Shown here: positions 5,786 through 38,171 of the stretch, piece by piece
How the letters are laid out: each line of letters starts with the position of its first letter
How positions within the stretch are numbered: the stretch's first letter is position 1
Assembly: GCA_027483805.1 (NCBI GenBank)
Contig: JAIXTS010000109.1
Coordinates: 6,474 to 70,473, forward strand
Origin: Azospirillum sp.
GTDB lineage: Bacteria; Pseudomonadota; Alphaproteobacteria; Azospirillales; Azospirillaceae
Length of the DNA: 64,000 bases
Reading direction: 5' to 3'
Translations under genes and position numbers: made by a program
Notes under the pieces: model-generated
What the model saw: only the letters and a program-made list of their open reading frames with translations
Database searches by the model: none
Told to the model about the DNA's origin: nothing

Positions 5786-7438
5786 TCACTGCCCAGGGTC
5801 AGGGGCGTCCGGCCGGTCCCCTTTTATCATATCCCGTACATAGCTCACCAGCGGGTCCCCCAGGGCTGCCGACCGGTCAAGCAAGGCTTCTGCGCCCTCC
5901 GCATCAAGGTCCATGCGCCAGAGCAGTTCGGCCAGCATGGTCATGGCCTCCATCACCCCGGCCTGCGCCGGTCCTTGCAAGGCCGCTCGCATCTTCTCCA
6001 GCGTTGCGCGGTCGTTCGGCCGGTGCAGCAGGGTCATGCGGGCCAGATTGATCTGGGCCGACAGATGGCCCTGCACGGCGGAGGCCGCAAACAGGTCGAT
6101 GGCGCGCTCATTATCCAGGGGCAGTTCCGTGCCCAGCGTCAGGGCATGGGCTACCCGGAACTGCCCCGATGCACTGCCAAGCTCTGCCGATGCGATGTAG
6201 AAATCGAAGGCGGCCTTCCGGTCCTGTGCCACCCCATTCCCGTGGTAGAGCATTGTTCCGTAATTATAGGTGGCATCCGCATGGCCGCGTTCAGCGGCCA
6301 TGCGCAGGTGCTCCGCCGCAATGACCGGGTTGGCGGGCACACCGCGCCCCAGAAGATGGCAAAGCCCCAGTTGAAACCGTGCTTCCGCGTGCTGTTCGGC
6401 GGCTTTGGCGAACAGTTCGGCCGCGCGCGCCGGGTCCTGATGTACACCTCTGCCGGAAAGATGGGCCAGCCCCAGCGCTGTCATCGCCGGCAGGTACCCC
6501 ACATCCATGGCGGCGGCATACCAGACGATGGCCTCTCCCGGGTTGGGGATTTGTGCCTTGCCCAGAGCGTGCAGGTCGGCCAGGAACACCATGCTTTCCG
6601 CATCACCCTTGACGGCGGCGCGCCGGAACCAGGTTTCCGCCTGCCCCACATCCACGGGCTGCTTGCCGATCCCGTTCAGATAAATCTGTCCCAGGGCGCG
6701 CATGGCCCCCGGCACGCCCGCGCCAGCGGCGCGGATCAGCCATTCGCGCCCCGTCTCGGGATCGGCCGCAATACCCGCCCCCTGCACCAGGCTGACCCCG
6801 AGATAGTAGAAGGCCGTCTTGTTACCGAGATCCGCCGCCTTCTGGTAGAGCGCGCAGGCATCTTCCGGTCCCTGGCCCGGCACCTCGCCAACGCTGATCA
6901 GGCCGGCCAGACCCACCATGGCCGGTGCGCTGCCTTGATCAGCGGCGCGGCTGTACCATTCGATGGCCTGGCTGATGTCGCGGCCCTCCGGGTCCTCCTC
7001 CATGCTGCATAGCCAACCCAGCAGGACCTGCGCTTCCATGTGGCCCTGCGCGCTGGCCAGGCGGGCCCAATGGCGGGCCTTGGCCCGGTCGCGCAGCACG
7101 ACCAGCGCCCCGTCATCCTGGGTCGTCTTCTTCTTTACATCCGGGTTGCCGACACCGGTTGAATAAACACCGGCAAGCCGTGCCTGGGCCTCTGCCTTTC
7201 CGGCATCGGCAGCACGTTCGTACCAGCGCATGGCGGATCGCAGATCGCGCAAGGTGCCCAGCCCGCGCCATAAGGCGTCGGCGACCGCCAGCTGGCAATC
7301 GGCATCACCAGCCTGGGCAGCGGTGTGCCAGATATCGACAGCCTTTTCCAAACGCCCCTTTGCCGCGGCTTGCTGGCCACGGGCGAACGGGGTGCCGTAC
7401 AGGCGGTTCTTCAACCGATCGACATATGTTTCTGTCAC
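5786..7438 (-). CDS. Sel1-like repeat protein (about 12 SLRs), no obvious signal peptide
   Basis: Recurrent A-x3-LG-x2-Y-x2-G-x-G…A-x2-W-x3-AA-x2-G units across 550 aa. Confidence 0.92.
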   Translation of the reverse strand: MTETYVDRLKNRLYGTPFARGQQAAAKGRLEKAVDIWHTAAQAGDADCQLAVADALWRGLGTLRDLRSAMRWYERAADAGKAEAQARLAGVYSTGVGNPDVKKKTTQDDGALVVLRDRAKARHWARLASAQGHMEAQVLLGWLCSMEEDPEGRDISQAIEWYSRAADQGSAPAMVGLAGLISVGEVPGQGPEDACALYQKAADLGNKTAFYYLGVSLVQGAGIAADPETGREWLIRAAGAGVPGAMRALGQIYLNGIGKQPVDVGQAETWFRRAAVKGDAESMVFLADLHALGKAQIPNPGEAIVWYAAAMDVGYLPAMTALGLAHLSGRGVHQDPARAAELFAKAAEQHAEARFQLGLCHLLGRGVPANPVIAAEHLRMAAERGHADATYNYGTMLYHGNGVAQDRKAAFDFYIASAELGSASGQFRVAHALTLGTELPLDNERAIDLFAASAVQGHLSAQINLARMTLLHRPNDRATLEKMRAALQGPAQAGVMEAMTMLAELLWRMDLDAEGAEALLDRSAALGDPLVSYVRDMIKGDRPDAPDPGQ

Positions 7439-7521
7439 GATACCCTATTCAGTCGACCATCGGGATTAAGCCTGATCTATCCCACCTGTGTTCCGCGGAA
7501 AAGGCCGAAGCGTCGTTGCCG

Positions 7522-8760
7522 TCAACAGGGACGGGGCAGACCGAACTCCCGATGCAGCATTTCCAGCCATCCCGGCAGTCCAACCTTTTCCAGATCAAAG
7601 CGTTCGACCACGGTCTGCCGGGCGGCCATCTGCAATTGCTTGCGCGGCTTGGCCGACATGCTCAGCGCAGTGGCCAGCCCCGATGCCACCGCCACGGGAT
7701 CATGGAAAGGGACCAGCAGGCCGTTGACGCCATGCTGCACCACCTCCGTCACCGGCCCGGTATCGGACGCGACCAACGAGACGCCGCAGGCCATGGCTTC
7801 CAGCATGGACCAGCTCAGCACGAAAGGGTAGGTGAGATAGAGATGCGCACGCGAAAGACGCATCAGATTGATGAAATCGGCATGCGGGATGTGGCCGGTG
7901 AAATGAACCCTGTCGGTGGGCAGGTCCCCGGCCAGTTCGGCCAGCATGTGTTCCCGCCAGCTTTCGCCGCCGGACGGGGGCGGTCCATAGCAACTGCTGT
8001 CACCGCCGGCAATGACAAGCCGAGTCGTCGGGCGGGACCGCAGCAGGGGCACAGCCGCCCGCATCATGATGTGGAAGCCGCGATAGGGTTCCAGGTCGCG
8101 CGCCACATAGGTGACGATTTCCTGGCCGGGCGACAGTCGGTGCCCGTCGGGCAACAGCATGGCCGTTGGCACGCCGGGGCTGGCAATGGCTGTATCGATC
8201 CCCTCATGGATCAGCGCCAACTTTTCCTGATAGGGTCGCGGGTGCAGGCTCCGTTGCCATCGGGTGGGCGAAACCCCTCTGTCCACCGCCTCAAGCTGGA
8301 GCAGGTTGACCATGTTCAGGGCACGCACCCGTGCCAGATCATAAAGGCTCAGCGGTGCCGGGGGGTCAAAACCCACATCCGCGCCGGTCCCCTGGTAATA
8401 GAACTCGAAATAGCCGACCAGCGGCACATCCGGCCATAGATCCTTCACGAACAGCAATTCACCCCAGCCATGATGGCCGATCACCAGGTCGGGGCGATAA
8501 CCGGCCTGCGATAGCAGCGTGCATGCCGCCAGCACCGACTGTCCCTGCCAGACCGCGGCCTCTGTGCGTGTCAGATAGGGATGGGTGCGGCTTTCCCCGC
8601 CATTATGCAGAACATAGCGGTGAAGCGTCACCCCATCGACCGTTTCCGCGGGTTCGCTGGCCATCGCGTCCACCTGGACGCCGGGTAAACAGGCCAGCCG
8701 GCGGGCCAGATGGATAAACTGCCCGGGGAAAACCTTATGGATAAACAGAACCTTGTACAT
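7522..8760 (-). CDS. Glycosyltransferase family 4 (Glyco_trans_4_3-type N-terminus)
   Basis: MYKVLFIHKVFPGQF, GHHGWGE, RDLEPYRGFH, YPFVLSWSMLEAMACG; start placed at ATG 8760. Confidence 0.92.
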   Translation of the reverse strand: MYKVLFIHKVFPGQFIHLARRLACLPGVQVDAMASEPAETVDGVTLHRYVLHNGGESRTHPYLTRTEAAVWQGQSVLAACTLLSQAGYRPDLVIGHHGWGELLFVKDLWPDVPLVGYFEFYYQGTGADVGFDPPAPLSLYDLARVRALNMVNLLQLEAVDRGVSPTRWQRSLHPRPYQEKLALIHEGIDTAIASPGVPTAMLLPDGHRLSPGQEIVTYVARDLEPYRGFHIMMRAAVPLLRSRPTTRLVIAGGDSSCYGPPPSGGESWREHMLAELAGDLPTDRVHFTGHIPHADFINLMRLSRAHLYLTYPFVLSWSMLEAMACGVSLVASDTGPVTEVVQHGVNGLLVPFHDPVAVASGLATALSMSAKPRKQLQMAARQTVVERFDLEKVGLPGWLEMLHREFGLPRPC

Positions 8761-8959
8761 ACATGTCCCACCTGGTCCACCGGCCCCTTGCCCGCGTAAG
8801 GGTCGCGCAGATGTCGCCGCCCGGCAAGACAATAGGGTTGCGTGTCACCGATAGCTGCCTATGGTGACGGTGCGGGCGGGCCGTCCCGTCATATCACATT
8901 GTAAGAGGAGCCATCCTTTGCAGTTCATCTGGCCGGACGCATTCGCCGAACCTGTATCC

Positions 8960-10939
8960 ATGACCTGTCCGGTCTGCGCCGACGCAGGCCCCCACCGCCC
9001 GGCATTGACCCTGCCATCGGCCGGACCTGGCGGGGCCGACTGGCGCCTGCTTGAATGCCTGTCCTGCCAATCCCGGTTCTCAACCGACCGCCAGGGCGCC
9101 GACTATCATGGTGGTGACGTGCCGGACACGCCCTTTCTCCATTATTACATGGAACAGGGTGCCGGGCTGCGGCCCATGCTGGAACCGCTTGGTTTTGCAG
9201 AACCGGGACCGGGTCGGATGCTTGAAATCGGCGGTGGTTTCGGGTTTCCCAGCGATTATGTGCAAACCGTGCTGGGCTGGACCGCCAAAGGGTATGATCC
9301 GTCCGGTCTTGCCGTCATGGGCAAGCGCTATCTGGGCCTGGACATCACGCGGGACTATTGGACCAGCGACACCCCGCTGACCGAGCCGTTCGACGTCGCC
9401 TATGCGTCGGAAGTGATTGAACATATCCCCGAACCTGGCCCATTTCTGGCCGCCTTGCGTCGGGCCGTGGGCCAGCACGGGGTGGTGGCTCTCACCACGC
9501 CCAACGGCGCTGCCCTCAATCCTGGAACAACCCCCGGCATGCTGGTGCCGATCGCCAGTCCTGGCCTGCATGTGACGCTGTTCAGCGCCAAGGGCCTGGA
9601 ACTGGCCTTGCGGTCGGCCGGATTCCCCCATGTGCGGGTAGAGGAGGACGGCTCGCAGTTGCTCGCCTTCGCCAGCGAGGCGCCGCTGCCGGCGCCGCGC
9701 CGGCTCGATGACGGTCGCTATATCGACTATCTCTATCGTCGGATCGGCACGCCAGACCTGGCGCCGGCCCTGCTTTCGGGTTTGCGGTACCGGCTTCTCA
9801 AGGAGTTGGTCAATCTGGGCGATGCCGCCGGCGCCTTGCGGCTATATGCCGAAATGGCGGTGGCCCTGCGGGACCGTTTCGCCATCGATATCGAGAATCC
9901 GGCGACGCTGACCATGCCCGCCGCCTCAATTGAAAGCCGGGAATGGTTGTCCCTGCTGCCCGGCAACATCACCGGCCTGCTCTATTTCCGCGCCGTCCTG
10001 GCCAACAATGCCGAGGGCGACGCCCGGTCCGCCGCCCTTTATGCGGGGCGCGCCGCACAGGTGGGCGCCTCGCTGCGACAGGTTCTGCGGGCCGTCGGCA
10101 TCGAAGATGGTGAAACCGAAGCCCTGGCGATGGCAGCCATGCACCTGCATCTGTCGGCGGCGGCCGGGCTCGGCGCCGACACCGCCCCCCTGCTGTCGGC
10201 GGTGGAACGCGGGACGGAAGACACGGGCCTGCTGCTGCCGGCCGGTTTCCGATCCCGGCTGCGGCACCTGGTGGTGCGGGATCTGCGGGCCACACGGCAC
10301 CCGGCCTTGCTGTGGCGGGCCTTGTCGGTCATGGAACCAGCGCCGGCGGATGAGCTTTCCCTTCTGTCCGATGGGCTTGCCGCCGGCCTTCCCGTCGCAC
10401 CCGTCGCCGCCTTCGAGGCGCTGCAGACAGCGCCGGATGCCGACGCCGTCCGGCAGGCCCTGCGGGAGATATGGTGTACACCGGGAATCGGTGAGGCACC
10501 CGCCAGCCTTGCCCATGCCCGTAAACTGGCCTTGATCCGGCTTGTCCTGCTGGGGGCCTATTCCGACGCAGAAACATTGTTTGATCTCTGGGGTGACCAG
10601 ACGCTGGCCGCGGACCGGTCGGTCGCGGATGCCCTCGCCATCGCCGCCTCTGCCCGGCGACAGGGCCGCGGCGGCGGTGACATACCCGGTTTTGCCGCGA
10701 TTGAAACGGCCCCGGATGCGCCGTCGGTGAAGCAGGCGCTCTGGTCGGTCTGGACCCTGCCGGATGCCGGGGAAAACCCGGCAATTATCCGACAGGCGCG
10801 AAAACTGACCCTGATCCGACTCGTGCTGCTTGGTGCGTTCGCCGATGCCGAAGCGCTGTTTGACGTCTGGGAAGACCCTTCCCTGGCCAATGACGAGCCG
10901 GTCGCCACGGCCCTGGCCATCGCAGCCTCTGCCCGCTGA
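8960..10939 (+). CDS. Class I SAM-dependent methyltransferase with N-terminal CxxC…CxxC, a helical middle region and a tandemly duplicated C-terminal module
   Basis: CPVC…CLSC, LEIGGGFG, SEVIEHIPEP, LTTPNG; the ORF extends to 8861 and the start is uncertain. Confidence 0.8.
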   Translation: MTCPVCADAGPHRPALTLPSAGPGGADWRLLECLSCQSRFSTDRQGADYHGGDVPDTPFLHYYMEQGAGLRPMLEPLGFAEPGPGRMLEIGGGFGFPSDYVQTVLGWTAKGYDPSGLAVMGKRYLGLDITRDYWTSDTPLTEPFDVAYASEVIEHIPEPGPFLAALRRAVGQHGVVALTTPNGAALNPGTTPGMLVPIASPGLHVTLFSAKGLELALRSAGFPHVRVEEDGSQLLAFASEAPLPAPRRLDDGRYIDYLYRRIGTPDLAPALLSGLRYRLLKELVNLGDAAGALRLYAEMAVALRDRFAIDIENPATLTMPAASIESREWLSLLPGNITGLLYFRAVLANNAEGDARSAALYAGRAAQVGASLRQVLRAVGIEDGETEALAMAAMHLHLSAAAGLGADTAPLLSAVERGTEDTGLLLPAGFRSRLRHLVVRDLRATRHPALLWRALSVMEPAPADELSLLSDGLAAGLPVAPVAAFEALQTAPDADAVRQALREIWCTPGIGEAPASLAHARKLALIRLVLLGAYSDAETLFDLWGDQTLAADRSVADALAIAASARRQGRGGGDIPGFAAIETAPDAPSVKQALWSVWTLPDAGENPAIIRQARKLTLIRLVLLGAFADAEALFDVWEDPSLANDEPVATALAIAASAR

Positions 10940-11204
10940 TCCACCATATCCCCGCCAGGACAAGGCGGGGTACCCCCTTGGGGGCGGGTTTCCTTTGCTT
11001 TTCCAATCAAGCACATACGGGAGAGGCAAACGGCCCCCACGGCAAGGCCTAAGACTTTCGGTCGATGACTTGAATGTACCAACGGCATTGCACAAAACCG
11101 CTGCTGGTGGTAAATAAAGATAAAATTTGATGTGGCGGATTGGGCTGCCGGTGTCCCATATGTGGGCCGCGCCGGGTGTTCATTTTTGTAGATGGGGGTA
11201 GGTT

Positions 11205-12122
11205 ATGGCTACGTTGTCGGGCGGTCAGACGATCGCCACTGTGGGTGTGACGGCGCAGGAGAACACGCAGATTACGCAAATTCTGCAATCGACGTTCTCC
11301 AGCTCGACCGTCGTCAACACACAGGTCAACACCTCCACCGGTGGCAGCACCGTGCCGACCCAACCGCTCACCTTCGGCACTTTCGACGTCACCAGCGTTT
11401 CTAACGTGGTCCTGGCGCCCAGCTCCAACAACTCGGTCGTCATCGCTAACGTCAGTTCGGCGCCGACCACGACAGGGTCGGTGACCAATCTGGTCGTTGA
11501 TTCTTCGGCCGGCAGCGTGGTGATCCAGGGTACGGCGGCAGGCACCGTGACCGGCCTGATCCTGCCGAGCGGTGGTGGCGCCTCCCTGGTGGTTGGCGAC
11601 GCCGGGACGCAGGTTATTGATGGTTCGCGCAGCACCTCCAATCAGACCATCGTCACCGGCGTTGGTAACGACACCGTGGTGGCCGGCTCCGGCAATGACA
11701 GCGTTACGCTGGGTGATTTCGGTATGGCCAATGGTGGTAATGGTGCCGACACGTTGATTGGCGGCCTGGGCAGCGCGACGCTGGGCGGCGGCGGCGGCGC
11801 CGACAGTATCGTGGCGTCGTCGGGCGGCGGCGTGCTGATCGGCGAGTCGGGTAACGACACGATGGTGGGTGGCGCCGGTAAGGATGTCTTCATCTATACC
11901 AGCAGCGGCGGCAATGACGTCATTTCCGGCTTCGATCCGGCCAACGATACGCTGGGTCTTGCCAACTTCAACGATATCTCGGCCGCCGGTCTGTCGCTCC
12001 AGGACATCATCAACCGGGCCACTGTCTCTGGTGGTAACACCATCCTGACCATGCCCGACGGCTCGACCATCACGATTGCCGGCGTTACCGGCGTGAACGT
12101 CAATTGGTTCACGATGAAGTAA
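11205..12122 (+). CDS. Small RTX (Ca2+-binding nonapeptide repeat) protein, probable type I secretion substrate or surface-layer protein
   Basis: 305 aa; repeats TGVGNDTVV, AGSGNDSVT, GGNGADTLI, GGGGADSIV, GESGNDTMV, GGAGKDVFI, SSGGNDVIS; no N-terminal signal peptide; C-terminal DGSTITIAGV…F pattern typical of T1SS cargo. Confidence 0.9.
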   Translation: MATLSGGQTIATVGVTAQENTQITQILQSTFSSSTVVNTQVNTSTGGSTVPTQPLTFGTFDVTSVSNVVLAPSSNNSVVIANVSSAPTTTGSVTNLVVDSSAGSVVIQGTAAGTVTGLILPSGGGASLVVGDAGTQVIDGSRSTSNQTIVTGVGNDTVVAGSGNDSVTLGDFGMANGGNGADTLIGGLGSATLGGGGGADSIVASSGGGVLIGESGNDTMVGGAGKDVFIYTSSGGNDVISGFDPANDTLGLANFNDISAAGLSLQDIINRATVSGGNTILTMPDGSTITIAGVTGVNVNWFTMK

Positions 12123-12147
12123 AAAGCCGGTCCCCTTCAAGACCTTG

Positions 12148-12180
12148 GAAATGGCGGACTTTTGTCCGCCATTTCTGTTT
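12148..12180 (+). terminator. Rho-independent terminator after the RTX gene
   Basis: Perfect 12-bp stem GAAATGGCGGAC-TTTT-GTCCGCCATTTC followed by TGTTT. Confidence 0.8.
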
Positions 12181-12188
12181 GGTAGTCT

Positions 12189-13007
12189 GTGGTGACAAAA
12201 GTGGATCCGAATGTGGTGGTCATGTCGATAGCGAATGGGTTGGTCGCAACAGCAACGCGTGACGGCGGCGCTGATCGTTTCCGGTCGGTGCCACAAGTGC
12301 TCCAGTTGCCGGAAGGCCTGTACCTTGCTGCTCTGAAACCGACCGCACAGGCCCCGACACTGATCAACGGTGTCGCTTTCCCGGCCACACAGATTTCATC
12401 CATCCCGCAACCGGGCACAATCCCGCCCAGCATGCTGTACAAGGGGCATCTTGCGCCGGTCGTGTGGCTAAGCGGGCTGGATGTCGCCGTCATCACCGTG
12501 CCGGCCGGCGGATCGCCCCTGCTGGTCACGAATTATCTCTACGGACCGGAATTGCAGAAATCCGTGGATCTGGAGATCACGCGGCTGGATCGGGTTCAGA
12601 AGATACCCCCGGTGGGATTGATCGTTCACGCCCATATCCAACAGATGGGCGAACTGAAATTTGCGGCCGGTGAATGGGCCGCGACCGACGCCCCCTTCTG
12701 GATTGAGGCGTTGCAGCTGGAGGTTTCGCCCGGCATTGGTCAATTGCTGCAATACCGGGTACCGGGTGTCAGCACATCCGATGGCGCCTGGACACCGGCG
12801 CCGGGCCGAATCGGCGTTCCGGGTGGGCCGCCCTTGGCGGGCATCGCCTTCCGCCTGCTGCCCCCCCTCTCTGAAAGCCATCGGGTCGTCTATGCCGCCC
12901 GCTTCCTGCGTCACGGTGAAATCTCGGGCATGGATGGTGAGCCGTGCCGTTCGCCCCAGGCACAGGATCCGATGATTGCCGTCCGGGTGGCCGTTGTCCC
13001 CCGGTGA
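12189..13007 (+). CDS. Hypothetical protein with C-terminal ChW (hydrophobic-W)-like repeats
   Basis: 272-aa ORF, GTG start; HAHIQQMG…GEWAAT…WIEALQL and two weaker repeats. The domain call is by eye. Confidence 0.75.
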   Translation: MVTKVDPNVVVMSIANGLVATATRDGGADRFRSVPQVLQLPEGLYLAALKPTAQAPTLINGVAFPATQISSIPQPGTIPPSMLYKGHLAPVVWLSGLDVAVITVPAGGSPLLVTNYLYGPELQKSVDLEITRLDRVQKIPPVGLIVHAHIQQMGELKFAAGEWAATDAPFWIEALQLEVSPGIGQLLQYRVPGVSTSDGAWTPAPGRIGVPGGPPLAGIAFRLLPPLSESHRVVYAARFLRHGEISGMDGEPCRSPQAQDPMIAVRVAVVPR

Positions 13008-15807: not shown

Positions 15808-15858
15808 AGAACAGCAAAGAACCAAATCTCTTGCCCGTTGCTACAGCAGCCTTCGCCC

Positions 15859-16641
15859 TCAGCTTTTACGCCAGAAGGTGCCCGTCCAGTCGATGTCGAC
15901 CATCGGGTCTGCGATCCCCCGACGCTGACGGAAGTCACGGACCGCGTCCGCGCAGGCCGGCACGGCCCCGTGATCATCAATGATCACATATCCGCCGGAC
16001 GGAACGCGGTCGTACAAGGCGTCCAGCGCCACCATGGTGGATTCATAAAGATCGCCGTCCAGCCGCAAGACGGCAATGGACCGGACCGGGGCGTTGGGCA
16101 GCGTGTCGCGGAACCAGCCCTCGATAAAGCGGACCCGACCATCCAACAGGCCGAAACGCCGGAAATTCTCCTCCACCACGGCGCGCCCGGCCTTCAGATA
16201 GTCGATGGTGCTGAGATCCAGGCTGAATTCCCCCGGATAGCGTTCAAAGTCGGGCGCCGGCAAGCCCTGGAAACTGTCGGCCAACCAGACCCAGCGGTCC
16301 TGCGCGCCCAGCACATCCAGGACAGCCTTGGCGAAGATGCAGGCGCCGCCCCGCCAGACCCCGGTTTCGACCACGTCGCCGGGAACATCATCCGCCACGA
16401 CCTGTTCAATACAATGGCGCAGATTGTCCAGACGCTTTAATCCCGACATGGAATAGGCGCGCTGCGGCCAATCCCCGCCTTCGCCCCGGATCGCGCGCCT
16501 GACGGCAAGATCGTTCAGGTCGCGTTCGGCATAGTCGGGGCGGACGAACTGTGAACCATCATGGATGCTGATATTCACATAATCGGTCAGCACCTGCGCC
16601 AGCAGCGAAAGGTACCGCTCCTGCGAAGGATCAACGGGCAT
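15859..16641 (-). CDS. TylF/MycF/NovP-family sugar O-methyltransferase
   Basis: GDVVETGVWRGG, ADSFQGLP, GWFRDTLP, LRLDGDLYEST, IIDD; start placed at MPVDPS (16641). Confidence 0.93.
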   Translation of the reverse strand: MPVDPSQERYLSLLAQVLTDYVNISIHDGSQFVRPDYAERDLNDLAVRRAIRGEGGDWPQRAYSMSGLKRLDNLRHCIEQVVADDVPGDVVETGVWRGGACIFAKAVLDVLGAQDRWVWLADSFQGLPAPDFERYPGEFSLDLSTIDYLKAGRAVVEENFRRFGLLDGRVRFIEGWFRDTLPNAPVRSIAVLRLDGDLYESTMVALDALYDRVPSGGYVIIDDHGAVPACADAVRDFRQRRGIADPMVDIDWTGTFWRKS

Positions 16642-17001
16642 ATGATTTTCCCCTGGGCCGCAGCATGGCCAATCGACAATGCGTGACTGTTGTCGCTCAG
16701 CGACGGCAACAGCCCGGTGTCCACGACAGAATATTGCCACATCAGGGCAAGATTCCCATGTGGCAGCGGACCACCGCCATGGTTTATGAGGGTTCTAACA
16801 ATGTGGTATCCTCCCGACAATAGGTTTCAGCATGTCGAAACACCCATGGAAGCCGCTGAATTGCCAATGAAAACCACCTTCGACCCTGGCTTCGCGGATT
16901 GTCCGGTACCAATGGCAGCGCTGTAACATGGCCCCTCGATCCATCACCGGCCTGCCCGTGCCGGCCCCCCGTTCTGGCGGCGTGATCGCGGGCGGCAAGG
17001 C

Positions 17002-17844
17002 ATGAAACCCGTCCATTCGGCGATCATCCGGGCCGATCTCGGCCCGTTGGGACCCTTCACCACCATCTGGCGGCACCGGACGCTGATCGGGCGTCTGACA
17101 CGCCGGGAACTGGCGGGTCGCTATCGCGGCTCATTGCTTGGGCTGGTCTGGGCGGTTCTCACGCCACTGCTGATGCTGGCGGTCTATACGTTCGTATTCT
17201 CCACCGTGTTTCAGTCGCGGTGGACCGGGTCGGTGGAGCAGCAGCCGGGGGAATACGCGCTGTTCCTGTTCGCGGGCCTGACCCTGTTTAACATCCTGGC
17301 GGAAAGCCTGAACAGGTCGCCGGGACTGATGCTGGAAAATGTCAGCTACATCAAAAAAGTCGTCTTCCCTCTGGAAGTGATGCCGGTCGTCATCCTGGCG
17401 GGCGCGCTGGTCAATGCCGGGATCAGCATGCTGGTGCTGGTGGCGTTCTATATCCCCTATCGCGGCCTACCACCTGAAAGCGCCCTGCTGGCGCCGTTGG
17501 TGCTTCTTCCCTTCTGTCTTCTGGCCTTGGGCCTTTGCTGGTTCCTGGCTGCGGCAGGTGTGTTTCTGCGCGATATCCGGCAGTTCATCGGCGTTCTGGT
17601 CACCCTGCTGCTGTTTCTCAGCCCGGTCTTCTACCCGGCGGGCGGGGTTCCGGAGAAGCTGGATATCCTGCTGGCCGTGAACCCGCTGACACCCCTGCTG
17701 GAGCAGTGGCGGGCCTGCCTTTTTGAAGGCAAGGGCCTTGATCCCTGGGGCTTTCTCCAGGCCGCGGGGCTGGGCTGGCTGGCGGCCTGGCTGGGACATT
17801 TGTTTTTTGCCAAGGCCCGCGACGGTTTCGCCGATGTCGTATAA
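17002..17844 (+). CDS. wzm: Polysaccharide ABC exporter permease Wzm
   Basis: RELAGRYRGSLLGLVWAVLTPLLML, IKKVVFP, SPVFYP, NP…; six hydrophobic segments. Confidence 0.95.
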   Translation: MKPVHSAIIRADLGPLGPFTTIWRHRTLIGRLTRRELAGRYRGSLLGLVWAVLTPLLMLAVYTFVFSTVFQSRWTGSVEQQPGEYALFLFAGLTLFNILAESLNRSPGLMLENVSYIKKVVFPLEVMPVVILAGALVNAGISMLVLVAFYIPYRGLPPESALLAPLVLLPFCLLALGLCWFLAAAGVFLRDIRQFIGVLVTLLLFLSPVFYPAGGVPEKLDILLAVNPLTPLLEQWRACLFEGKGLDPWGFLQAAGLGWLAAWLGHLFFAKARDGFADVV

Positions 17845-17898
17845 TGCCAAGCCAAGGGCGCGGCTGCGCCCGCCCGGCGCCTGCGGGTCGGAAAGGGA

Positions 17899-19236: not shown

Positions 19237-19397
19237 GCCGGCCCCTGAGCAGGGATCGGTCCAGGCGCCCCTGCCACCGGGGTCATTGTCCAACCGTAAC
19301 GATGGCTTGCGGCTTGCAGCTTCCAGAATGATCACGGTCCTGCTACCGTCGGCCGGGCCACGGGCGGAGCATTTGCCGGTTTGAGAGGAGGTCGCCT

Positions 19398-22300
19398 TTG
19401 GCGCAGCATATGTTGGATCGACAGCCGCAATACCTGTCCCGGCTGGGCCGCGCGTCCGCTTTCATGATCCCCGACCGGGTTGTCCACCCGCCCTCCTGGG
19501 TGGGGCACATCCCTTTCGCCTTCTGGATCGTCGATATCCTGCGGCCCGCGGTTCTGGTCGAATTGGGAACCCATAGCGGCAATTCCTATTCCGCCTTCTG
19601 TCAGGCGGTGCAGACGCTGGGGATATCCACACGCTGCCACGCCGTCGATACATGGGCCGGCGATCCGCAGGCCGGCCTTTACGGGCCGGAAGTGCTGGCC
19701 GACCTTTCCGCCCACCACGATCCCCGCTATGGGGCCTTCTCAACACTCATGCAGATGCGTTTCGATCAGGCCTTGGCGCATTTTGCCGACGGCTCCATCG
19801 ACCTGCTGCATATTGACGGGCTGCACACCTATGATGCTGTGCGCCATGATTTTGAAACCTGGCTGCCGAAAATGAGCCGGCGCGGGGTTATCCTGTTCCA
19901 TGACATCAATGTGCATCAGCCCGATTTTGGTGTCTGGAAATTATGGGCGGAAATCACCGTCGACCGGCCGCATTTTTCCTTCCTGCATTGTCACGGGCTG
20001 GGTGTGCTGGCCGTCGGCGATGACCTTCCCGATGACCTGCGCTGGCTGTTCGCCGCCCACGGGCAAGATGCCGATGATGCGGCAGGGGTCCATGCCTTCT
20101 TCGCCCGATTGGGCGACGCAATTGTCGATGGCTATCTGTCCTGCGAACGCCAGCGTGTCATACAGGCCCTGGAGAGCACCGTCCGCAGCCGTGAAGCAGA
20201 GCTGATCCCCCTTCGGCTTCAGATCCTGGACCGCGACCGCAGGATCGCCGACCTGACCAGGGCGCGCCAGGAAGATCAGCAGCAGCGCCACGCCGAGATC
20301 ACCCGCCTCAATGATGATCTCCAGGACCAGAGCCGGCTGTTGGCGGCCCATATTGCCATGGTGCAGGAGCGGGATCGGCAGATCCTGGGCTTTCTCCAGT
20401 CAACCTCCTGGCAGTTGACCGCGCCGATCCGGGCCCTTCGCCGTCTGGTCGATCGGGCCCGGCGCGTCTCCTTGCGCCAGTTGCGCCGCCTTCAACAGCG
20501 TCCCTTGACCCATCGGATGACGGTGGCCCAGACGCATCAGATCCAGGCCGACGCATCCGCCGCCCCTGGCGGTCCTTATGAAAGCACAGGCGACGATCCG
20601 CAGCTGATCCTTGTGTCCGACCAGAAACGGGCGCCGCACGGATGGTGTGTGCTTTCCTTTACGGTCGCGGACGCGTCCAGCCCTTTGCTGCCCATGATCT
20701 ATGCCGATACCGGCAATGGCTTCACCGATCAGACGGCGATCGCCCTGCCGCCCGTTCGCGATGGCCGTCTGGAACAATTGTTGGTCCTGTCGCCGGATAC
20801 ACGATCCCTCAGGCTGGACCCGACGATTGAAGCCGCGCGGTTCCAGCTTTCCGGAATCCAGGTGCGGGAAATCAGCCAGGCGGAAGCCCTGTACCGTCTG
20901 GTGCGCCGATATGGGCGCGACTGGCGGCTTGAATGGCGGTCGCTGGCAGCCACGGGGCAGGATCGCGCCGGTCATGACCGGACAGCACAGTTGCTGCGTG
21001 CCAACGTCGCCGGCTCCTACGACCGCTGGGTGGCTTTGTATGACACGCTGCATGACTGGGACCGGGCGGCGATCCGCAACGATATCGGCTCATGGGCAGA
21101 CCGGCCGGTGATCTCGATCCTGATGCCGGTCTATAACCCGCCGGTGGCGTTTCTGCGCCAGGCGCTGGATTCTGTGCAGGGCCAGCTTTATCCCCATTGG
21201 GAATTGTGCATTGCGGATGATGCATCGACCGACCCGGCGGTCGGCGCCCTCCTCCGGGACTATGCGGCCCGTGAACAGCGCATCAAGCTGGTGTTCCGGC
21301 CCGCCAATGGCAATATCGCCGCCGCATCGAACACGGCCCTGGAATTGGTCAGCGGTGCTTTCGTGGCCCTGATGGACCATGATGACATGCTGCCCCCCCA
21401 CGCGCTGTACCGGGTGGCGATGGAGATTGGTCTGCATCCGCAGGCCGATCTGATCTATTCCGACCAGGACAAGATCGACGCCGGCAATCGCCGCTATGGA
21501 CCGTATTTCAAGACCGACTGGAACCCCGATCTGTTGTGCGGTCAGAATATGGTCAGCCATCTGGGGGTGTACCGGACCAGCCTGCTGCGCGATATTGGCG
21601 GTTTCCGGGAGGGGTATGATGGCAGCCAGGATTATGATCTGGTTCTGCGCGCCAGCGAACTGACCACGCCTGACCGTATCCGCCATATTCCGCATGTGCT
21701 CTATCATTGGCGGGTGTTCCAGGGGTCTTCCTCCTTCACCAGCACGGAATTGCCGCGGGCCGTAACGGCCGCAAGACGTGCCATCCAGGATCACCTGGAC
21801 CGTACCGCCCCCGGGGCACGGGCGGAACCGGTGCCCGGCATGGAATGGTTCACCCGTGTCGTGCATGCCCTGCCGGAGCCGGCACCAAAGGTGACGCTGA
21901 TTGTCCCGACGCGCGACAAGGTCGAACTGCTGCGCCCCTGCATCGACAGCCTGCTGCGGCAGACCGACTACCCGGCGTTCGAGATTATTATCGTCGATAA
22001 TGGCAGCCGGGCGCCGGAAACCCACACTTACTTCGCAGAACTGGCCAGCAACCCCCAGGTACAGGTACTGCCCTACGACCAGCCCTTCAATTACTCCGCC
22101 CTCAACAATCACGCCGCCACCCTGGCCAGCGGCGAACTGCTGGGGCTGGTCAATAATGACATCAAGGTGATCAATCCCGGCTGGCTGCGCGAAATGGTGT
22201 CCCAGGCCCTGCGGCCGGGCGTTGGTGTCGTCGGGGCCAAACTCTATTATGGCGACAGCCGGGTGCAGCATGCAGGCGTGGTCACCGGCATCCTGGGCGT

Positions 22301-22775
22301 CGCGAACCATATTTTCAAATTCGCCAGCCGAAATGATCCTGGCTATTTCGGCCGTCTGAAGCTGGTGCAGGAATTTTCCTGCGTCACCGGCGCCTGCATG
22401 GTGATGCGCAAATCGGTTTTCGATCAGGTCGGTGGCCTGGACGCCGAAAACCTCGCCGTCAGCTTCAACGATGTCGATCTGTGCCTGCGCATCCGGGAAG
22501 CCGGGTATCGTGTGGTCTGGACACCGTTTGCTGAACTGTATCACCTGGAATCAATGTCACGGGGCGCCGCCACACAGCCCGATCAGATCGACTGCTTCAA
22601 GCAGGAGATCGCCTATATGCAAACCCGCTGGGCCGGAACATTGGCGGCCGATCCCTTTTACAATGCCAACCTGACATTGAATGATCTCGATTTTTCCTTC
22701 GCCTTCCCCCCGCGCGTATCACCATTTTCCAAGATGATGACACATGATCACCATCACCCCGGCGTTCGCCCCTAG
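19398..22775 (+). CDS. WsaE/WbdD-like multidomain protein: methyltransferase, coiled coil, beta-sandwich and two GT2 domains
   Basis: VELGTHSGNS…LLHIDGLHTYD…FHD; coiled coil ending SWQLTAPIR; ISILMPVYN…DDAS…DHDD; TLIVPTRD…LVNND…VTGAC…FNDVDLCL; TTG start with GAGGAGG RBS. Confidence 0.92.
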   Translation: MAQHMLDRQPQYLSRLGRASAFMIPDRVVHPPSWVGHIPFAFWIVDILRPAVLVELGTHSGNSYSAFCQAVQTLGISTRCHAVDTWAGDPQAGLYGPEVLADLSAHHDPRYGAFSTLMQMRFDQALAHFADGSIDLLHIDGLHTYDAVRHDFETWLPKMSRRGVILFHDINVHQPDFGVWKLWAEITVDRPHFSFLHCHGLGVLAVGDDLPDDLRWLFAAHGQDADDAAGVHAFFARLGDAIVDGYLSCERQRVIQALESTVRSREAELIPLRLQILDRDRRIADLTRARQEDQQQRHAEITRLNDDLQDQSRLLAAHIAMVQERDRQILGFLQSTSWQLTAPIRALRRLVDRARRVSLRQLRRLQQRPLTHRMTVAQTHQIQADASAAPGGPYESTGDDPQLILVSDQKRAPHGWCVLSFTVADASSPLLPMIYADTGNGFTDQTAIALPPVRDGRLEQLLVLSPDTRSLRLDPTIEAARFQLSGIQVREISQAEALYRLVRRYGRDWRLEWRSLAATGQDRAGHDRTAQLLRANVAGSYDRWVALYDTLHDWDRAAIRNDIGSWADRPVISILMPVYNPPVAFLRQALDSVQGQLYPHWELCIADDASTDPAVGALLRDYAAREQRIKLVFRPANGNIAAASNTALELVSGAFVALMDHDDMLPPHALYRVAMEIGLHPQADLIYSDQDKIDAGNRRYGPYFKTDWNPDLLCGQNMVSHLGVYRTSLLRDIGGFREGYDGSQDYDLVLRASELTTPDRIRHIPHVLYHWRVFQGSSSFTSTELPRAVTAARRAIQDHLDRTAPGARAEPVPGMEWFTRVVHALPEPAPKVTLIVPTRDKVELLRPCIDSLLRQTDYPAFEIIIVDNGSRAPETHTYFAELASNPQVQVLPYDQPFNYSALNNHAATLASGELLGLVNNDIKVINPGWLREMVSQALRPGVGVVGAKLYYGDSRVQHAGVVTGILGVANHIFKFASRNDPGYFGRLKLVQEFSCVTGACMVMRKSVFDQVGGLDAENLAVSFNDVDLCLRIREAGYRVVWTPFAELYHLESMSRGAATQPDQIDCFKQEIAYMQTRWAGTLAADPFYNANLTLNDLDFSFAFPPRVSPFSKMMTHDHHHPGVRP

Positions 22776-22998
22776 ACCTGTTTTCGGCTGACCGGAAACA
22801 GGGCCGGCGGCGACTGCCGCCGCGCCGCTCGTGCGGCGCGCCCAAGCTGCGGATGCAGCGCCGGCGATTGAGGAAAACGAATGCTTAGACCTGTTTTCGG
22901 CTGACCGGAAATAGGTCCGGCGGTGACTGCCGCCGCGCCGCTCGTGCGGCGCGGCCAAGCTGCGGATGCAGCGCCGGCGATTGAGGAAAACGAATGCA
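22773..22998. repeat. Two tandem 113-bp copies of a structured intergenic repeat, plus a degenerate start of a third (about 23004-23024)
   Basis: Units begin at 22773 and 22886 (TAGACCTGTTTTCGGCTGACCGGAAA…GCGCCGGCGATTGAGGAAAACGAATGC) and differ at only a few positions. Confidence 0.95.
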
Positions 22999-33520: not shown

Positions 33521-33565
33521 CCATCCGGGTTACCGTTTTTAAGCTTGGCATCTGCCATGCGCGCG

Positions 33566-34600: not shown

Positions 34601-34733
34601 GGCCTTTTGTTGCCTGCCCCGGCCGGACAGTGCATAAAGCCGCCAGTCCCAATTCCGTACCCTGGGGCGAAGGGGCGGAACGGGGCGACGTCATTGCCGT
34701 TCCTGTCATCCCCCTTCGCCGGATAGAACCCTC

Positions 34734-35288: not shown

Positions 35289-35311
35289 ACCCCGCTGACA
35301 AGAGTTCTGGA

Positions 35312-37259: not shown

Positions 37260-37287
37260 CCGCCGGCCGCAACAACGGAACAATGCG

Positions 37288-38166: not shown

Positions 38167-38171
38167 CCCCC

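What the first reader, a model, noticed from the sequence alone, without database searches (positions are those of the whole stretch)
5786..22775. Candidate undescribed system: RTX surface protein with Sel1 and ChW-like accessories, methylating enzymes and an ABC-exported glycan
Seen directly: one 17-kb block encodes a small Ser/Thr-rich RTX protein, an approximately 12-repeat Sel1 protein without signal peptide, a ChW-like protein without signal peptide, three glycosyltransferase genes (five GT domains), three distinct methyltransferase domains and Wzm/Wzt. Established parallels: the Geobacillus S-layer glycosylation locus (WsaE methyl/rhamnosyltransferase, Wzm/Wzt, rml genes), the Sinorhizobium exp/wg cluster (RTX protein ExpE1, GTs, methyltransferase, rml homologues) and Caulobacter RsaA anchored on smooth LPS. 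I do not recall Sel1 or ChW-like components in any of these. Inference: the block either glycosylates the RTX protein in the cytoplasm before type I secretion, with Sel1/ChW-like proteins as adaptors, or builds a methylated rhamnan that anchors an RTX surface layer. No T1SS genes are in the window, so secretion would be in trans.
Basis: partly seen in the sequence, partly recalled or inferred. Interest (0 to 1): 0.82.

Follow-up and report, generated by a model that had tools for sequence, protein, structure and literature searches.

The report
Secreted calcium protein tied to glycan genes
This 17-kb stretch of a Niveispirillum-like genome joins an ordinary O-antigen export pathway to a conserved, barely studied gene set in which a secreted calcium-binding protein travels with sugar-polymerising enzymes; it is a relative of the still unexplained ExpE1 system of Sinorhizobium.

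Summary

**Two modules.**
- **Module A (5786-15807)** is syntenic in six Niveispirillum-type loci. Its parts recur at 25-46% identity in Azospirillum and Bradyrhizobium plasmids and in metagenomic contigs. It holds:
  - a cytoplasmic Sel1 protein;
  - an ExpC-like GT4;
  - a methyltransferase;
  - an ExpE1-like RTX protein;
  - a ChW-like protein;
  - a WbbB-type GT2-GT4 polymerase.
- **Module B (15859-22775)** varies between strains. It holds TylF, Wzm, Wzt with a carbohydrate-binding module, and a methyltransferase-spacer-GT2-GT2 protein. This is a standard capped O-polysaccharide ABC pathway.

**Links inside module A.**
- In most of the relatives a type I secretion system lies in the same cluster, with Sel1 directly after its adaptor gene in the distant ones.
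- In 32 of 150 family representatives the ChW-like protein is fused to the C-terminus of the polymerase.
- The RTX gene is the most transcribed gene of the block and ends in a conserved terminator hairpin.

**Comparison with known systems.** The closest studied system is the S. meliloti galactoglucan set ExpD1/D2-ExpE1-ExpC. Its mechanism is unknown.

**Reading.** Most likely the RTX protein is a secreted calcium-binding partner of the glycan (about 0.5). Its glycosylation in the cytoplasm before secretion is not excluded (about 0.25-0.3).

**Verdict.** New variant of a known kind.

The parts
5786..7438 (-). Module A: cytoplasmic Sel1-repeat protein (550 aa).
   Evidence: PF08238 E 4.5e-60. 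No signal peptide or TM segment, in the window protein or in six homologues. Homologues at 30-36% identity sit directly after the T1SS adaptor gene in L010, L011, L012, L014 and L022.
7522..8832 (-). Module A: ExpC-like GT4 glycosyltransferase with a PF12000 N-domain. The likely true start is Met25, at 8760.
   Evidence: PF12000 E 1.8e-57. 41-46% identical partners in L010, L011, L012, L014, L022 and L023, and 38% in L027. 40-53% identity to the ExpC region of S. meliloti pSymB.
8861..10939 (+). Module A: 692-aa protein with a Cys4 motif, a class I methyltransferase domain and a helical C-terminal region. The last ~90 aa are duplicated.
   Evidence: Methyltransf_23 E 5.5e-13. Conserved only in the Niveispirillum-type loci. 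It stands where other loci carry an orthologous ~200-aa methyltransferase.
11134..11204 (+). 5' leader of the RTX gene, preceded by an AT-rich stretch.
   Evidence: Metatranscriptome contigs of two runs (X16, X18) begin at 11134. Sequence.
11205..12122 (+). Module A: ExpE1-like RTX calcium-binding protein (305 aa). It has a conserved N-terminus (MATLSGG...), a hypervariable Ser/Thr/Val-rich stretch (~35-100), a beta-roll, and a conserved C-terminal end typical of type I secretion substrates.
   Evidence: HemolysinCabind E 4e-8. Profile hits to solved RTX beta-rolls. 34% identity to ExpE1. Ortholog alignment A3. Highest RNA depth in the block.
12147..12176 (+). 13-bp hairpin followed by a U-rich tail; a terminator/attenuator after the RTX gene.
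   Evidence: dG -29.3 kcal/mol, z -5.0. An equivalent hairpin follows the Ca-binding protein gene in 11 of the 12 other loci folded; L004 was cut too short to fold and L011 has no clean hairpin. RNA contigs end at 12124-12135.
12189..13007 (+). Module A: two-domain all-beta protein. Its C-terminal domain is a degenerate ChW triplet. It is the detached C-terminal module of the polymerase. The likely start is 12222.
   Evidence: 155 homologues, of which 32 of the 150 listed are fused to a GT2-GT4 homologue. hhalign against a ChW protein 99.4%. AF2 pLDDT 89.7. No solved relative.
12976..15807 (+). Module A: 943-aa soluble enzyme with a TPR-like N-terminal region and a GT2+GT4 dual-glycosyltransferase polymerase core of the WbbB type.
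   Evidence: Pfam. 33% identity over 662 aa (E 3e-92) to the two C-terminal GT modules of a GT99-bearing WbbB-like protein in an rfbBADC-wzm-wzt cluster. TPR is clear in the fused homologues.
15859..16740 (-). Module B: TylF-family O-methyltransferase.
   Evidence: PF05711 E 3.9e-93. Absent from all related loci.
17002..17844 (+). Module B: Wzm, the permease of the glycan ABC exporter.
   Evidence: ABC2_membrane E 1.6e-22. 53% identity to the A. brasilense Sp7 plasmid Wzm and 42% to the E. coli plasmid Wzm.
17899..19236 (+). Module B: Wzt ATPase with a C-terminal carbohydrate-binding module.
   Evidence: ABC_tran plus Wzt_C E 4.8e-30. 46% identity to A. brasilense Wzt.
19398..22775 (+). Module B: 1125-aa methyltransferase - charged helical spacer - GT2 - GT2. 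A chain terminator and polymerase in one protein.
   Evidence: Methyltransf_24 (residues 54-170) and two GT2 domains (573-702, 830-1054). The format matches the Klebsiella O7/O12 coiled-coil terminator-polymerases described in PMC11231755. The coiled coil itself is inferred from the sequence only.
22773..22997 (.). 113-bp direct repeat, two copies, at the right edge of the variable module.
   Evidence: TRF score 422, 96% match. Function unknown.
34734..38166 (+). rmlC, rmlB, rmlA, rmlD: the likely dTDP-rhamnose supply. They lie outside the finding and the link is inferred.
   Evidence: Pfam. rml genes accompany the related loci L012, L014, L016, L018, L021 and L022.

Best explanation
The block is two juxtaposed surface-glycan modules.

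**Module B** (TylF, Wzm, Wzt with its binding module, methyltransferase-spacer-GT2-GT2) is a conventional ABC-transporter-dependent O-polysaccharide pathway. The chain is capped, probably by methylation. The cap is read by the binding module on Wzt before export.

**Module A** is a conserved, mobile gene set related to the ExpD/ExpE1/ExpC part of the Sinorhizobium galactoglucan system.

- A soluble WbbB-type GT2-GT4 polymerase, its detached ChW-like glycan-binding module, an ExpC-like GT4 and a methyltransferase build a probably rhamnose-containing glycan at the cytoplasmic face of the membrane. In this strain the glycan leaves through Wzm/Wzt.
- The abundant 305-aa RTX protein is exported by a HlyB-type type I system encoded elsewhere in the genome. 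It folds with calcium outside the cell. There it acts as the extracellular partner of that glycan, needed for its production, retention or assembly at the surface, as ExpE1 is for galactoglucan.
- The cytoplasmic Sel1 protein is a scaffold that ties the secretion system to the glycosyltransferase complex.

**Shown:** gene content, homologies, synteny, the fusions, cytoplasmic location of the enzymes and Sel1, and high expression of the RTX gene.

**Inferred:** the sugar, the cap, where the RTX protein ends up, and the roles of Sel1 and the ChW-like module.
For: **Two modules.** Module A is syntenic in L001-L005, L015 and L020 at 52-82% identity (46-73% for the RTX protein). The TylF/Wzm/Wzt/MT-GT2-GT2 part is replaced by other genes there.

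**Homology to the one studied system.**
- RTX305 matches ExpE1 at 34% identity (E 9e-19) and shares its MATLxGG N-terminus.
- The GT4 matches the ExpC region at 40-53%.
- The S. meliloti gene order is ABC-HlyD-CaBP-GT2-MT-GT4.
- ExpE1 is secreted by ExpD1/ExpD2/TolC and is required for galactoglucan (PMC1403797 and PMC2912261).

**The GT2-GT4 core is a polysaccharide polymerase type.**
- It is 33% identical (E 3e-92) to the two C-terminal GT modules of a GT99-bearing WbbB-like protein. That protein sits in an rfbBADC-GT2-wzm-wzt cluster.
- WbbB polymerises a disaccharide repeat on a lipid carrier for a Wzt with a binding module (PMC11231755).

**Wzm/Wzt sit beside module A elsewhere too.** This is so in A. 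brasilense (53% and 46% identity), N. cyanobacteriorum and AAP38. wzm on the A. brasilense plasmid is reported to act in LPS synthesis (Lerner 2009, cited in PMC3391215).

**The partner secretion system is of the protein-exporting type.** The ABC proteins carry an N-terminal C39-like domain without a conserved Cys.

**Expression.** The RTX gene has the highest transcript depth of the block in four metatranscriptomes and is followed by a conserved hairpin. This fits a stoichiometric structural protein.

**Polymerase loci without their own exporter have a precedent.** Klebsiella O1 WbbY is one.
Against: - The role of ExpE1 itself has never been explained, so the homology transfers a phenotype, not a mechanism.
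- In the IS-flanked Bradyrhizobium island (18 contiguous genes) and in L010, the only membrane proteins are the type I secretion ABC and adaptor. There is no Wzm/Wzt, flippase, polymerase or priming transferase. This fits a glycan that leaves with the protein at least as well.
- A cytoplasmic Sel1 protein in the secretion operon, and TPR on the polymerase, suggest protein-protein contacts inside the cell. A purely extracellular partnership does not need them.
- A structural gene followed by an attenuator and then enzymes is also the layout of substrate-plus-modifying-enzyme operons.
- No type I secretion genes are in the 64-kb window.
Confidence: 0.5

Rival explanations
1. Glycosylated cargo. 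The module A enzymes glycosylate the RTX protein in the cytoplasm, on Ser/Thr of its variable N-terminal part or at the conserved N-terminal Thr. The TPR region and the ChW-like module hold the acceptor or the growing chain. Sel1 docks the complex on the type I secretion ABC protein. The glycoprotein then leaves through the type I system. The logic resembles the serine-rich adhesin / accessory Sec loci of Gram-positive bacteria.
For: - The Ca-binding protein gene lies immediately upstream of the polymerase in nearly all loci. Its attenuator hairpin is conserved.
- The Bradyrhizobium island and L010 carry many soluble GT domains and a type I secretion system as their only membrane machinery; the island also carries rml genes.
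- All Sel1 homologues are cytoplasmic, and outside Niveispirillum they sit in the secretion operon.
- Residues 35-100 of RTX305 are Ser/Thr-rich and hypervariable with indels.
- A T-[LIV]-x-G-G motif at the extreme N-terminus is shared with ExpE1 and has no known role.
- Glycosylated RTX proteins exist (SwmA, oscillin; PMC3034196).
Against: - The GT2-GT4 core is of a type that polymerises lipid-linked O-polysaccharide.
- ExpE1 and the Bradyrhizobium Ca-binding protein lack a Ser/Thr-rich region, and the latter also lacks the N-terminal motif.
- S. meliloti makes a free polysaccharide with the related genes.
- Wzm/Wzt sit beside module A in four Azospirillaceae loci.
- It is not known whether a type I channel passes a polypeptide with long glycan branches.
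- The AF2 model of RTX305 was too poor to say whether the Ser/Thr region is folded.
Confidence: 0.27
2. The type I system itself is the glycan's way out. The Ca-binding protein acts as a pilot or plug that opens or holds the channel without being covalently linked to the glycan. Wzm/Wzt in this window then serve only module B.
For: [quoted passage not shown]
- There are islands with a type I system and no other exporter.
- Outer-membrane OEP genes lie inside L010 and L027.
Against: - The ABC proteins carry a HlyB-like N-terminal domain, typical of RTX protein export.
- I found no precedent for free polysaccharide passing such a system.
- The window has no type I secretion genes at all, although module A is intact.
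Confidence: 0.1
3. Chance neighbours. The RTX, Sel1 and ChW-like genes have nothing to do with the glycan genes and merely sit in a variable surface-antigen region.
For: - O-antigen regions collect unrelated cargo.
- One ChW-like homologue (L026) lies in an unrelated context.
- GT2-GT4 homologues occur without an ExpE1-like Ca-binding protein, Sel1 or ChW-like gene in E. coli, Dinoroseobacter and R. rubrum plasmids.
Against: - The same set recurs at 25-46% identity in at least ten independent loci on chromosomes, plasmids and IS-flanked islands.
- There are 32 gene fusions of the ChW-like module with the polymerase.
- The type I secretion ABC proteins of these loci are each other's closest relatives, at 45-71% identity.
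Confidence: 0.05

Closest known systems
Sinorhizobium meliloti galactoglucan (EPS II) genes expD1/expD2-expE1-expE2-expE3-expE4 and expC (wgd/wge/wgc)
   Same: - A type I-secreted Ca-binding protein with the same MATLxGG N-terminus and 34% identity in the RTX/C-terminal part.
- A PF12000-type GT4 (ExpC region, 40-53% identity).
- A GT2, a class I methyltransferase and rml-type genes nearby.
- The Ca-binding protein gene stands first, followed by a hairpin and then the transferases.
- ExpE1 is needed for the polysaccharide.
   Different: - S. meliloti has no Sel1 protein, no ChW-like module and no hit to the WbbB-type GT2-GT4 polymerase.
- Its ABC protein lacks the N-terminal C39-like domain and is only 26-29% identical.
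- ExpE1 lacks the Ser/Thr-rich stretch.
- Its regulator is MarR-type.
- The window has Wzm/Wzt beside the module and no type I secretion genes.
Klebsiella pneumoniae / Raoultella O12 WbbB and the O7/O3 (E. coli O9a WbdD) format of ABC-transporter-dependent O-polysaccharide assembly
   Same: - The GT2+GT4 core of the 943-aa protein is homologous (33% identity, E 3e-92) to the two polymerase modules of a WbbB-like protein.
- Wzm, and Wzt with a C-terminal binding module.
- A terminator domain, spacer and two GT2 modules in one 1125-aa protein, as in the O7 format.
   Different: - The 943-aa protein has no GT99 Kdo-transferase and no long coiled coil. It has a TPR-like N-terminal region and a separate ChW-like module instead.
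- Neither the Ca-binding protein, Sel1 nor type I secretion belongs to the Klebsiella systems.
Vibrio vulnificus CabA/CabBC and Caulobacter RsaA/RsaDEF: type I-secreted Ca-binding surface or matrix proteins that work with a polysaccharide (from my own knowledge, not tested here)
   Same: An RTX-type protein secreted by a type I system encoded beside polysaccharide or O-antigen genes. The protein depends on the glycan for its place at the surface, or the matrix depends on the protein.
   Different: - No sequence comparison was made.
- RsaA is about 100 kDa and forms a lattice, whereas RTX305 is 31 kDa.
- No Sel1 protein, ChW-like module or WbbB-type polymerase is described for those systems.
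Serine-rich repeat adhesin loci with GtfA/B and the accessory Sec system (Gram-positive), and the Geobacillus S-layer glycan locus with WsaE
   Same: - The logic of a Ser/Thr-rich secreted protein encoded with its own glycosyltransferases, accessory proteins and secretion system.
- WsaE has the same methyltransferase plus two GT2 modules as the 1125-aa protein, by domain order only.
   Different: - Different secretion route and no homology shown.
- The Geobacillus glycan is transferred outside the membrane by an oligosaccharyltransferase. None was seen among the scanned ORFs here, and a type I substrate would bypass it.
ChW (PF07538) cell-wall-associated repeats of Clostridium and Lactococcus
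   Same: The C-terminal domain of the 272-aa protein aligns to a ChW triplet region at 99.4% probability. Homologues reach the Pfam threshold.
   Different: - The window protein itself gives no Pfam hit.
- It is cytoplasmic and attached to a glycosyltransferase, not an extracellular anchor.
- The ligand of ChW is undetermined (PMC5817068).

Membership tests
RTX / type I secretion substrates | Gly/Asp-rich nonapeptide repeats forming a Ca-binding beta-roll | tested here: met
   PF00353 E 4e-8. The family profile hits the CyaA, lipase, serralysin and HlyA beta-rolls at E 4e-29 to 1e-8.
RTX / type I secretion substrates | Uncleaved C-terminal secretion signal and a cognate ABC/adaptor/OMP system | tested here: inconclusive
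   - The C-terminal 30 residues are nearly invariant among orthologues.
- A type I system lies in the cluster in L005, L015, L010-L012, L014 and L022; L001 and L003 show only the start of one at the locus end.
- None is in the 64-kb window.
- Secretion was not tested.
ExpE1/ExpD/ExpC-type glycan system (S. meliloti galactoglucan) | ExpE1-like secreted Ca-binding protein | tested here: met
   34% identity over 195 aa, E 9e-19, and a shared MATLxGG N-terminus.
ExpE1/ExpD/ExpC-type glycan system (S. meliloti galactoglucan) | ExpC-like GT4 | tested here: met
   40-53% identity to the ExpC region of pSymB. PF12000 is present in all partner loci.
ExpE1/ExpD/ExpC-type glycan system (S. meliloti galactoglucan) | ExpD1/ExpD2 secretion genes adjacent to the Ca-binding protein gene | tested here: not met
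   Absent from the window. Present in relatives, but of a different ABC subtype with an N-terminal C39-like domain.
ExpE1/ExpD/ExpC-type glycan system (S. meliloti galactoglucan) | ExpE2/ExpE3/ExpE4 orthologues and a galactoglucan product | tested here: inconclusive
   - Only a 29% GT2-domain match of the 1125-aa protein to ExpE2.
- None of the window's methyltransferase domains matches ExpE3.
- The product is not testable with these tools.
ABC-transporter-dependent O-polysaccharide pathway with terminal capping | Wzm permease and Wzt ATPase with a C-terminal carbohydrate-binding module | tested here: met
   PF01061 E 1.6e-22. PF00005 plus PF14524 E 4.8e-30.
ABC-transporter-dependent O-polysaccharide pathway with terminal capping | Terminating enzyme on a coiled-coil protein, plus multi-module polymerase | tested here: inconclusive
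   - Methyltransf_24, a ~90-aa charged helical stretch and two GT2 domains in one protein.
- The coiled coil was not computed.
- The WbbB-type polymerase homology is met.
ABC-transporter-dependent O-polysaccharide pathway with terminal capping | Priming on undecaprenyl phosphate (WecA-type) and ligation by WaaL | not tested
   Neither was seen among the ORFs scanned in the window. They are usually encoded elsewhere.
ChW repeat family (PF07538) | Match to the Pfam model above the gathering score | tested here: not met
   No hit for the window protein even at E 10.
ChW repeat family (PF07538) | Homology to bona fide ChW triplets | tested here: met
   hhalign of A1 against a five-repeat ChW protein: 99.4%, E 3.4e-21, 145 columns. 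Several homologues pass PF07538.
Sel1 repeat proteins | Tandem Sel1 repeats | tested here: met
   PF08238 E 4.5e-60 with 6 called repeats. 11 repeats in the A. brasilense homologue.
Protein O-glycosylation system for a secreted adhesin (SRRP-like logic) | Glycan demonstrated on the secreted protein | not testable with these tools
   This needs mass spectrometry or glycoprotein staining of the secreted 305-aa protein.

The most novel reading that the evidence does not exclude
ExpE1-type proteins are carriers. The soluble polymerase complex builds its glycan directly on the Ca-binding protein in the cytoplasm, at the conserved N-terminal Thr or in the Ser/Thr-rich stretch. The Sel1 protein holds that complex at the HlyB-type ABC transporter. 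The protein-linked glycan is then pulled out, C-terminus first, through the type I secretion channel. That would be a protein-primed route for polysaccharide export. It would explain why galactoglucan needs ExpE1 and ExpD1/D2, and why some islands carry many glycosyltransferases but no glycan exporter.
Probability: 0.25. Interest if true: 0.85.

Novelty: new variant of a known kind. Interest (0 to 1): 0.6.

Why it matters
Since 2000 it has been known that Sinorhizobium cannot make galactoglucan without a small type I-secreted calcium-binding protein. The papers I could search offer no mechanism.

This window shows that the ExpE1-glycosyltransferase link is not a Sinorhizobium oddity. It is a mobile gene set spread over Azospirillaceae, Bradyrhizobium plasmids and uncultured bacteria. 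It has three components not described for it in the literature I could search:

- a cytoplasmic Sel1 protein encoded in the secretion operon;
- a ChW-like module that is part of the polymerase;
- a WbbB-type dual-glycosyltransferase polymerase.

The gene fusions and the islands that have a secretion system but no glycan exporter turn a vague association into testable contacts. Azospirillum brasilense Sp7 offers an established laboratory strain to test them.

The finding also gives the ChW fold, whose ligand is unknown, a cytoplasmic context attached to an enzyme.

The right third of the block is ordinary O-antigen biology.

Tried and rejected
- **Large word-indexed protein search.** It was switched off. 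I replaced it with the representative library, a genome-contig scan, plasmid tblastn and contig look-ups.
- **Metagenome scan.** A closer alignment gave only two loci.
- **Fold of the ChW-like protein.** The model is confident (pLDDT 89.7), but Foldseek found nothing below E 0.01, only weak cupin/jelly-roll resemblance. A profile search of PDB sequences found nothing.
- **Fold of RTX305.** The single-sequence model has pLDDT 42 and says nothing about the Ser/Thr-rich part.
- **PDB sequence searches.** The 943-aa enzyme gave no hit. The 1125-aa enzyme and the GT4 gave only generic GT2/GT4 hits.
- **Double-glycine leader idea.** I considered that the N-terminal T-[LIV]-x-G-G motif is a leader cut by the C39 domain of the ABC protein. 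I rejected this because that domain has no conserved Cys, and none at all in N. cyanobacteriorum.
- **Orthology of the methyltransferases.** I considered that the 692-aa methyltransferase is the orthologue of the ~200-aa methyltransferase conserved in other loci. No similarity was found.
- **Literature.** Searches for a described Sel1/ChW/type I secretion/glycosyltransferase system found none.

Full report
**What is there.**

The window has about 64% G+C. Its closest relatives are Niveispirillum genomes.

- a 550-aa Sel1 protein;
- a GT4 with the PF12000 N-domain;
- a 692-aa class I methyltransferase;
- a 305-aa RTX protein with 26% Ser+Thr and no Cys;
- a 272-aa protein without any Pfam hit;
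- a 943-aa GT2+GT4 protein;
- a TylF O-methyltransferase;
- Wzm;
- Wzt with the Wzt_C binding module;
- a 1125-aa Methyltransf_24 - GT2 - GT2 protein.

The rest of the window holds no type I secretion genes. It does hold an rmlCBAD set with a GT2, a GT4 and a Wzz-like gene at 33.5-40.2 kb.

**The block is two modules.**

In five genomes found with the 272-aa protein, the genes from Sel1 to the 943-aa enzyme are syntenic at 57-82% identity. In two of them GntR is also kept next to Sel1. The part from TylF to the 1125-aa gene is not conserved. What replaces it differs by genome:

| Relative | What follows module A |
|---|---|
| N. lacus | A type I secretion ABC protein and adaptor, 1.5 kb after the polymerase |
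| N. cyanobacteriorum TH16 (155-kb plasmid, between IS66 copies) | RgpF, Wzm, a short Wzt, two GT2 genes, then a type I ABC protein with an N-terminal C39-like domain, then HlyD |
| Strain AAP38 | The same kind of ABC protein begins at the end of the locus |

I call the conserved left part module A and the variable right part module B.

**The 272-aa protein.**

A full HMMER pass over 1.84 billion representatives gave 155 homologues.

- Some reach the ChW model PF07538.
- A profile of 29 two-domain members aligns its C-terminal domain to the ChW region of a five-repeat ChW protein at 99.4% probability, E 3e-21.
- AlphaFold gives a confident model (pLDDT 89.7) of two all-beta domains. It has no solved structural or sequence relative.
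- 32 of the 150 listed homologues are fused to the C-terminus of a protein 35-57% identical to the neighbouring 943-aa enzyme. The full-length fusions have TPR-GT2-GT4-ChW order.

The 272-aa protein is thus a detached module of the polymerase. It has no signal peptide, so it works in the cytoplasm.

**The wider neighbourhood.**

| Locus | Gene content |
|---|---|
| L010 | GT2-GT2, type I ABC, adaptor, Sel1 homologue, 160-aa Ca-binding-like protein, fused polymerase, ~200-aa methyltransferase, PF12000 GT4, outer-membrane OEP |
| L011, L012 | RTX-like protein, fused polymerase, PF12000 GT4, Sel1, adaptor, ABC; L012 also has rmlC and rmlD |
| A. brasilense Sp7 plasmid p5 (probably the plasmid known as pRhico; my inference from its size and its wzm and rml genes) | Wzt, Wzm, GT4, Ca-binding protein, 1396-aa TPR-GT2-GT4-ChW enzyme, methyltransferase, PF12000 GT4, methyltransferase, a serralysin-like protease, rfbCBDA, Sel1, HlyD |
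| IS-flanked island on a Bradyrhizobium japonicum plasmid | Ca-binding protein, methyltransferase, ABC with C39-like domain, HlyD, Sel1, a WbsX-GT4-GT2 protein, rfbBA/CD, two GT2 proteins, a ChW-like protein (profile E 4e-22), PF12000 GT4 |
| L023/L024 | A 768-aa RTX protein starting MATLPGG, then polymerase, then ChW-like protein, with a divergent methyltransferase and PF12000 GT4 |
| L027 | Polymerase, ChW-like protein, PF12000 GT4, methyltransferase, OEP |
| L026 | One homologue in an unrelated context |

- The type I ABC proteins of these loci are 45-71% identical to the Niveispirillum ones. They are only 26-29% identical to S. meliloti ExpD1.
- A ~200-aa methyltransferase is orthologous in four loci (41-53% identity) but is missing from the window, where the 692-aa protein stands in its place.
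- None of the Sel1 homologues has a signal peptide or membrane segment.

**Link to known systems.**

- *Sinorhizobium.* RTX305 hits the Ca-binding protein of the S. meliloti pSymB exp region. The gene order there is MarR, type I ABC, HlyD, Ca-binding protein, GT2, methyltransferase, GT4. These are ExpG, ExpD1, ExpD2 and ExpE1-E4. Identity is 34% (E 9e-19), and both proteins start with MATLxGG. The window GT4 matches the ExpC region at 40-53%. ExpE1 is secreted by ExpD1/ExpD2 and TolC and is required for galactoglucan production or secretion (PMC1403797, PMC2912261). S. meliloti has no Sel1 or ChW-like gene in that region.
- *Klebsiella-type O-antigen.* The GT2-GT4 core of the 943-aa enzyme is 33% identical (E 3e-92) to the C-terminal two GT modules of an 1188-aa protein on E. 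coli, Klebsiella and Enterobacter plasmids. That protein has a GT99 N-terminal domain and sits in an rfbBADC-GT2-wzm-wzt cluster. This is the WbbB format of Klebsiella O12. In it, two C-terminal GT modules polymerise a disaccharide repeat, an N-terminal module caps the chain, and the binding module on Wzt admits only capped chains (PMC11231755).
- *The 1125-aa protein.* Its order (methyltransferase, charged spacer, two GT2 modules) has the format the same paper describes for serotype O7.
- *GT2-GT4 relatives outside this context.* Plasmids of Rhodospirillum rubrum (which does carry an unrelated RTX protein and a type I system nearby) and Dinoroseobacter have none of the ExpE1-like, Sel1 or ChW-like genes. 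The ChW-like module and Sel1 therefore mark the subfamily that travels with a type I secretion system.

**Expression.**

The organism occurs in freshwater metagenomes, and four metatranscriptomes hold parts of the block.

- Their contigs cover mainly 11134-12135, the RTX gene, at word depth 2.4-12 (6.5-12 in three of the four runs). The few fragments elsewhere reach 2-3.8. Contig depth is only a crude measure of expression.
- A 13-bp hairpin with a U-rich tail follows the stop codon (12147-12176; dG -29.3 kcal/mol, z -5.0).
- An equivalent hairpin follows the Ca-binding protein gene in most of the other loci, including A. brasilense and S. meliloti, and the stem is almost identical across the Niveispirillum clade. 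L004 was cut too short to judge and L011 shows no clean hairpin.

The Ca-binding protein is therefore made in large excess over the enzymes encoded downstream.

**How it most likely works.**

Module B is, on its own, a complete capped O-polysaccharide pathway of a well-known kind. I consider this settled at the level of gene content.

For module A two readings compete.

*The partner reading (about 0.5).*
- It rests on homology to ExpE1 and to a polymerase type that acts on lipid-linked chains.
- Wzm/Wzt sit beside module A in four Azospirillaceae loci.
- wzm is reported to act in LPS synthesis in A. brasilense (Lerner 2009, cited in PMC3391215).
- Polymerase loci without their own exporter have a precedent in Klebsiella O1.

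*The glycosylated-cargo or carrier reading (about 0.25-0.3).*
- In the Bradyrhizobium island and in L010 the only membrane proteins are the type I ABC and adaptor.
- Sel1 is cytoplasmic and belongs to the secretion operon.
- The polymerase carries TPR.
- The substrate-like gene stands first and is followed by an attenuator.
- Residues 35-100 of RTX305 are Ser/Thr-rich and hypervariable.
- Glycosylated RTX proteins are known.

I could not decide between the two with the tools at hand. The AF2 model of RTX305 failed. The shared N-terminal T-[LIV]-x-G-G motif remains unexplained. It is probably not a cleaved leader, because the ABC N-terminal domain has no conserved cysteine.

**Verdict.**

However, the block is composite, its right third is ordinary, and the left part is a variant of the ExpE1-type systems rather than something without precedent.
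- I found no paper describing the Sel1 and ChW-like components or the WbbB-type polymerase in this context.

Noticed in passing
window 28983-31562 (-): An 859-aa protein with about 300 aa of strong TPR repeats. Its C-terminal part gives weak hits to GT9 (heptosyltransferase-like, E 3.5e-5) and FkbM methyltransferase. TPR joined to a GT-B enzyme is the layout of some protein glycosyltransferases.
   Followed up: partly
window 33545-40245 (+): A second glycan gene set: GT2, rmlC, rmlB, rmlA, rmlD, GT4 and a Wzz-like chain-length protein, followed on the other strand by a GH88 hydrolase. The GT2 could be the WbbL-like adaptor rhamnosyltransferase; this was not tested.
   Followed up: partly
window 22773-22997: A 113-bp unit repeated twice (96% match). 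It starts at the stop codon of the 1125-aa gene, at the border between the variable module and the helicase gene.
   Followed up: no
window 10390-10939 (C-terminus of the 692-aa methyltransferase): The last ~90 residues are an internal duplication. The window protein and the N. lacus orthologue carry two copies. The orthologues in L001-L004, L015 and L020 align with one copy only.
   Followed up: partly
N-termini of the Ca-binding proteins: window 11205-11240; L007, L009, L010, L011, L012, L014, L015, L020, L021, L024: An extreme N-terminal motif T-[LIV]-x-G-G (MATLSGG in the window, MATLEGG in ExpE1) is shared across proteins that otherwise align only in the RTX part. The Bradyrhizobium protein lacks it.
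   Followed up: partly
L004 14261-20795 (-): In Niveispirillum sp. KHB5.9 the variable part is occupied by two large proteins (1443 aa and at least 730 aa) with no Pfam hit at all, after a small HAD-like gene.
   Followed up: no
L015 (N. cyanobacteriorum plasmid) and L022 (B. japonicum plasmid): Module A and its relatives sit on plasmids between IS66/IS5/IS110 copies and recombinase genes, whereas in the window they are chromosomal next to GntR. The set is evidently mobile.
   Followed up: partly
window 26819-28843 (-): A methyl-accepting chemotaxis protein with a C-terminal PilZ domain, that is, a chemoreceptor that may bind c-di-GMP. A GGDEF-EAL protein lies at 57223-59226.
   Followed up: no
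L014 22643-24334 (+): In the A. brasilense cluster a serralysin-type M10 protease with RTX repeats lies between module A and the rml genes. It is a second likely substrate of the same type I system.
   Followed up: no
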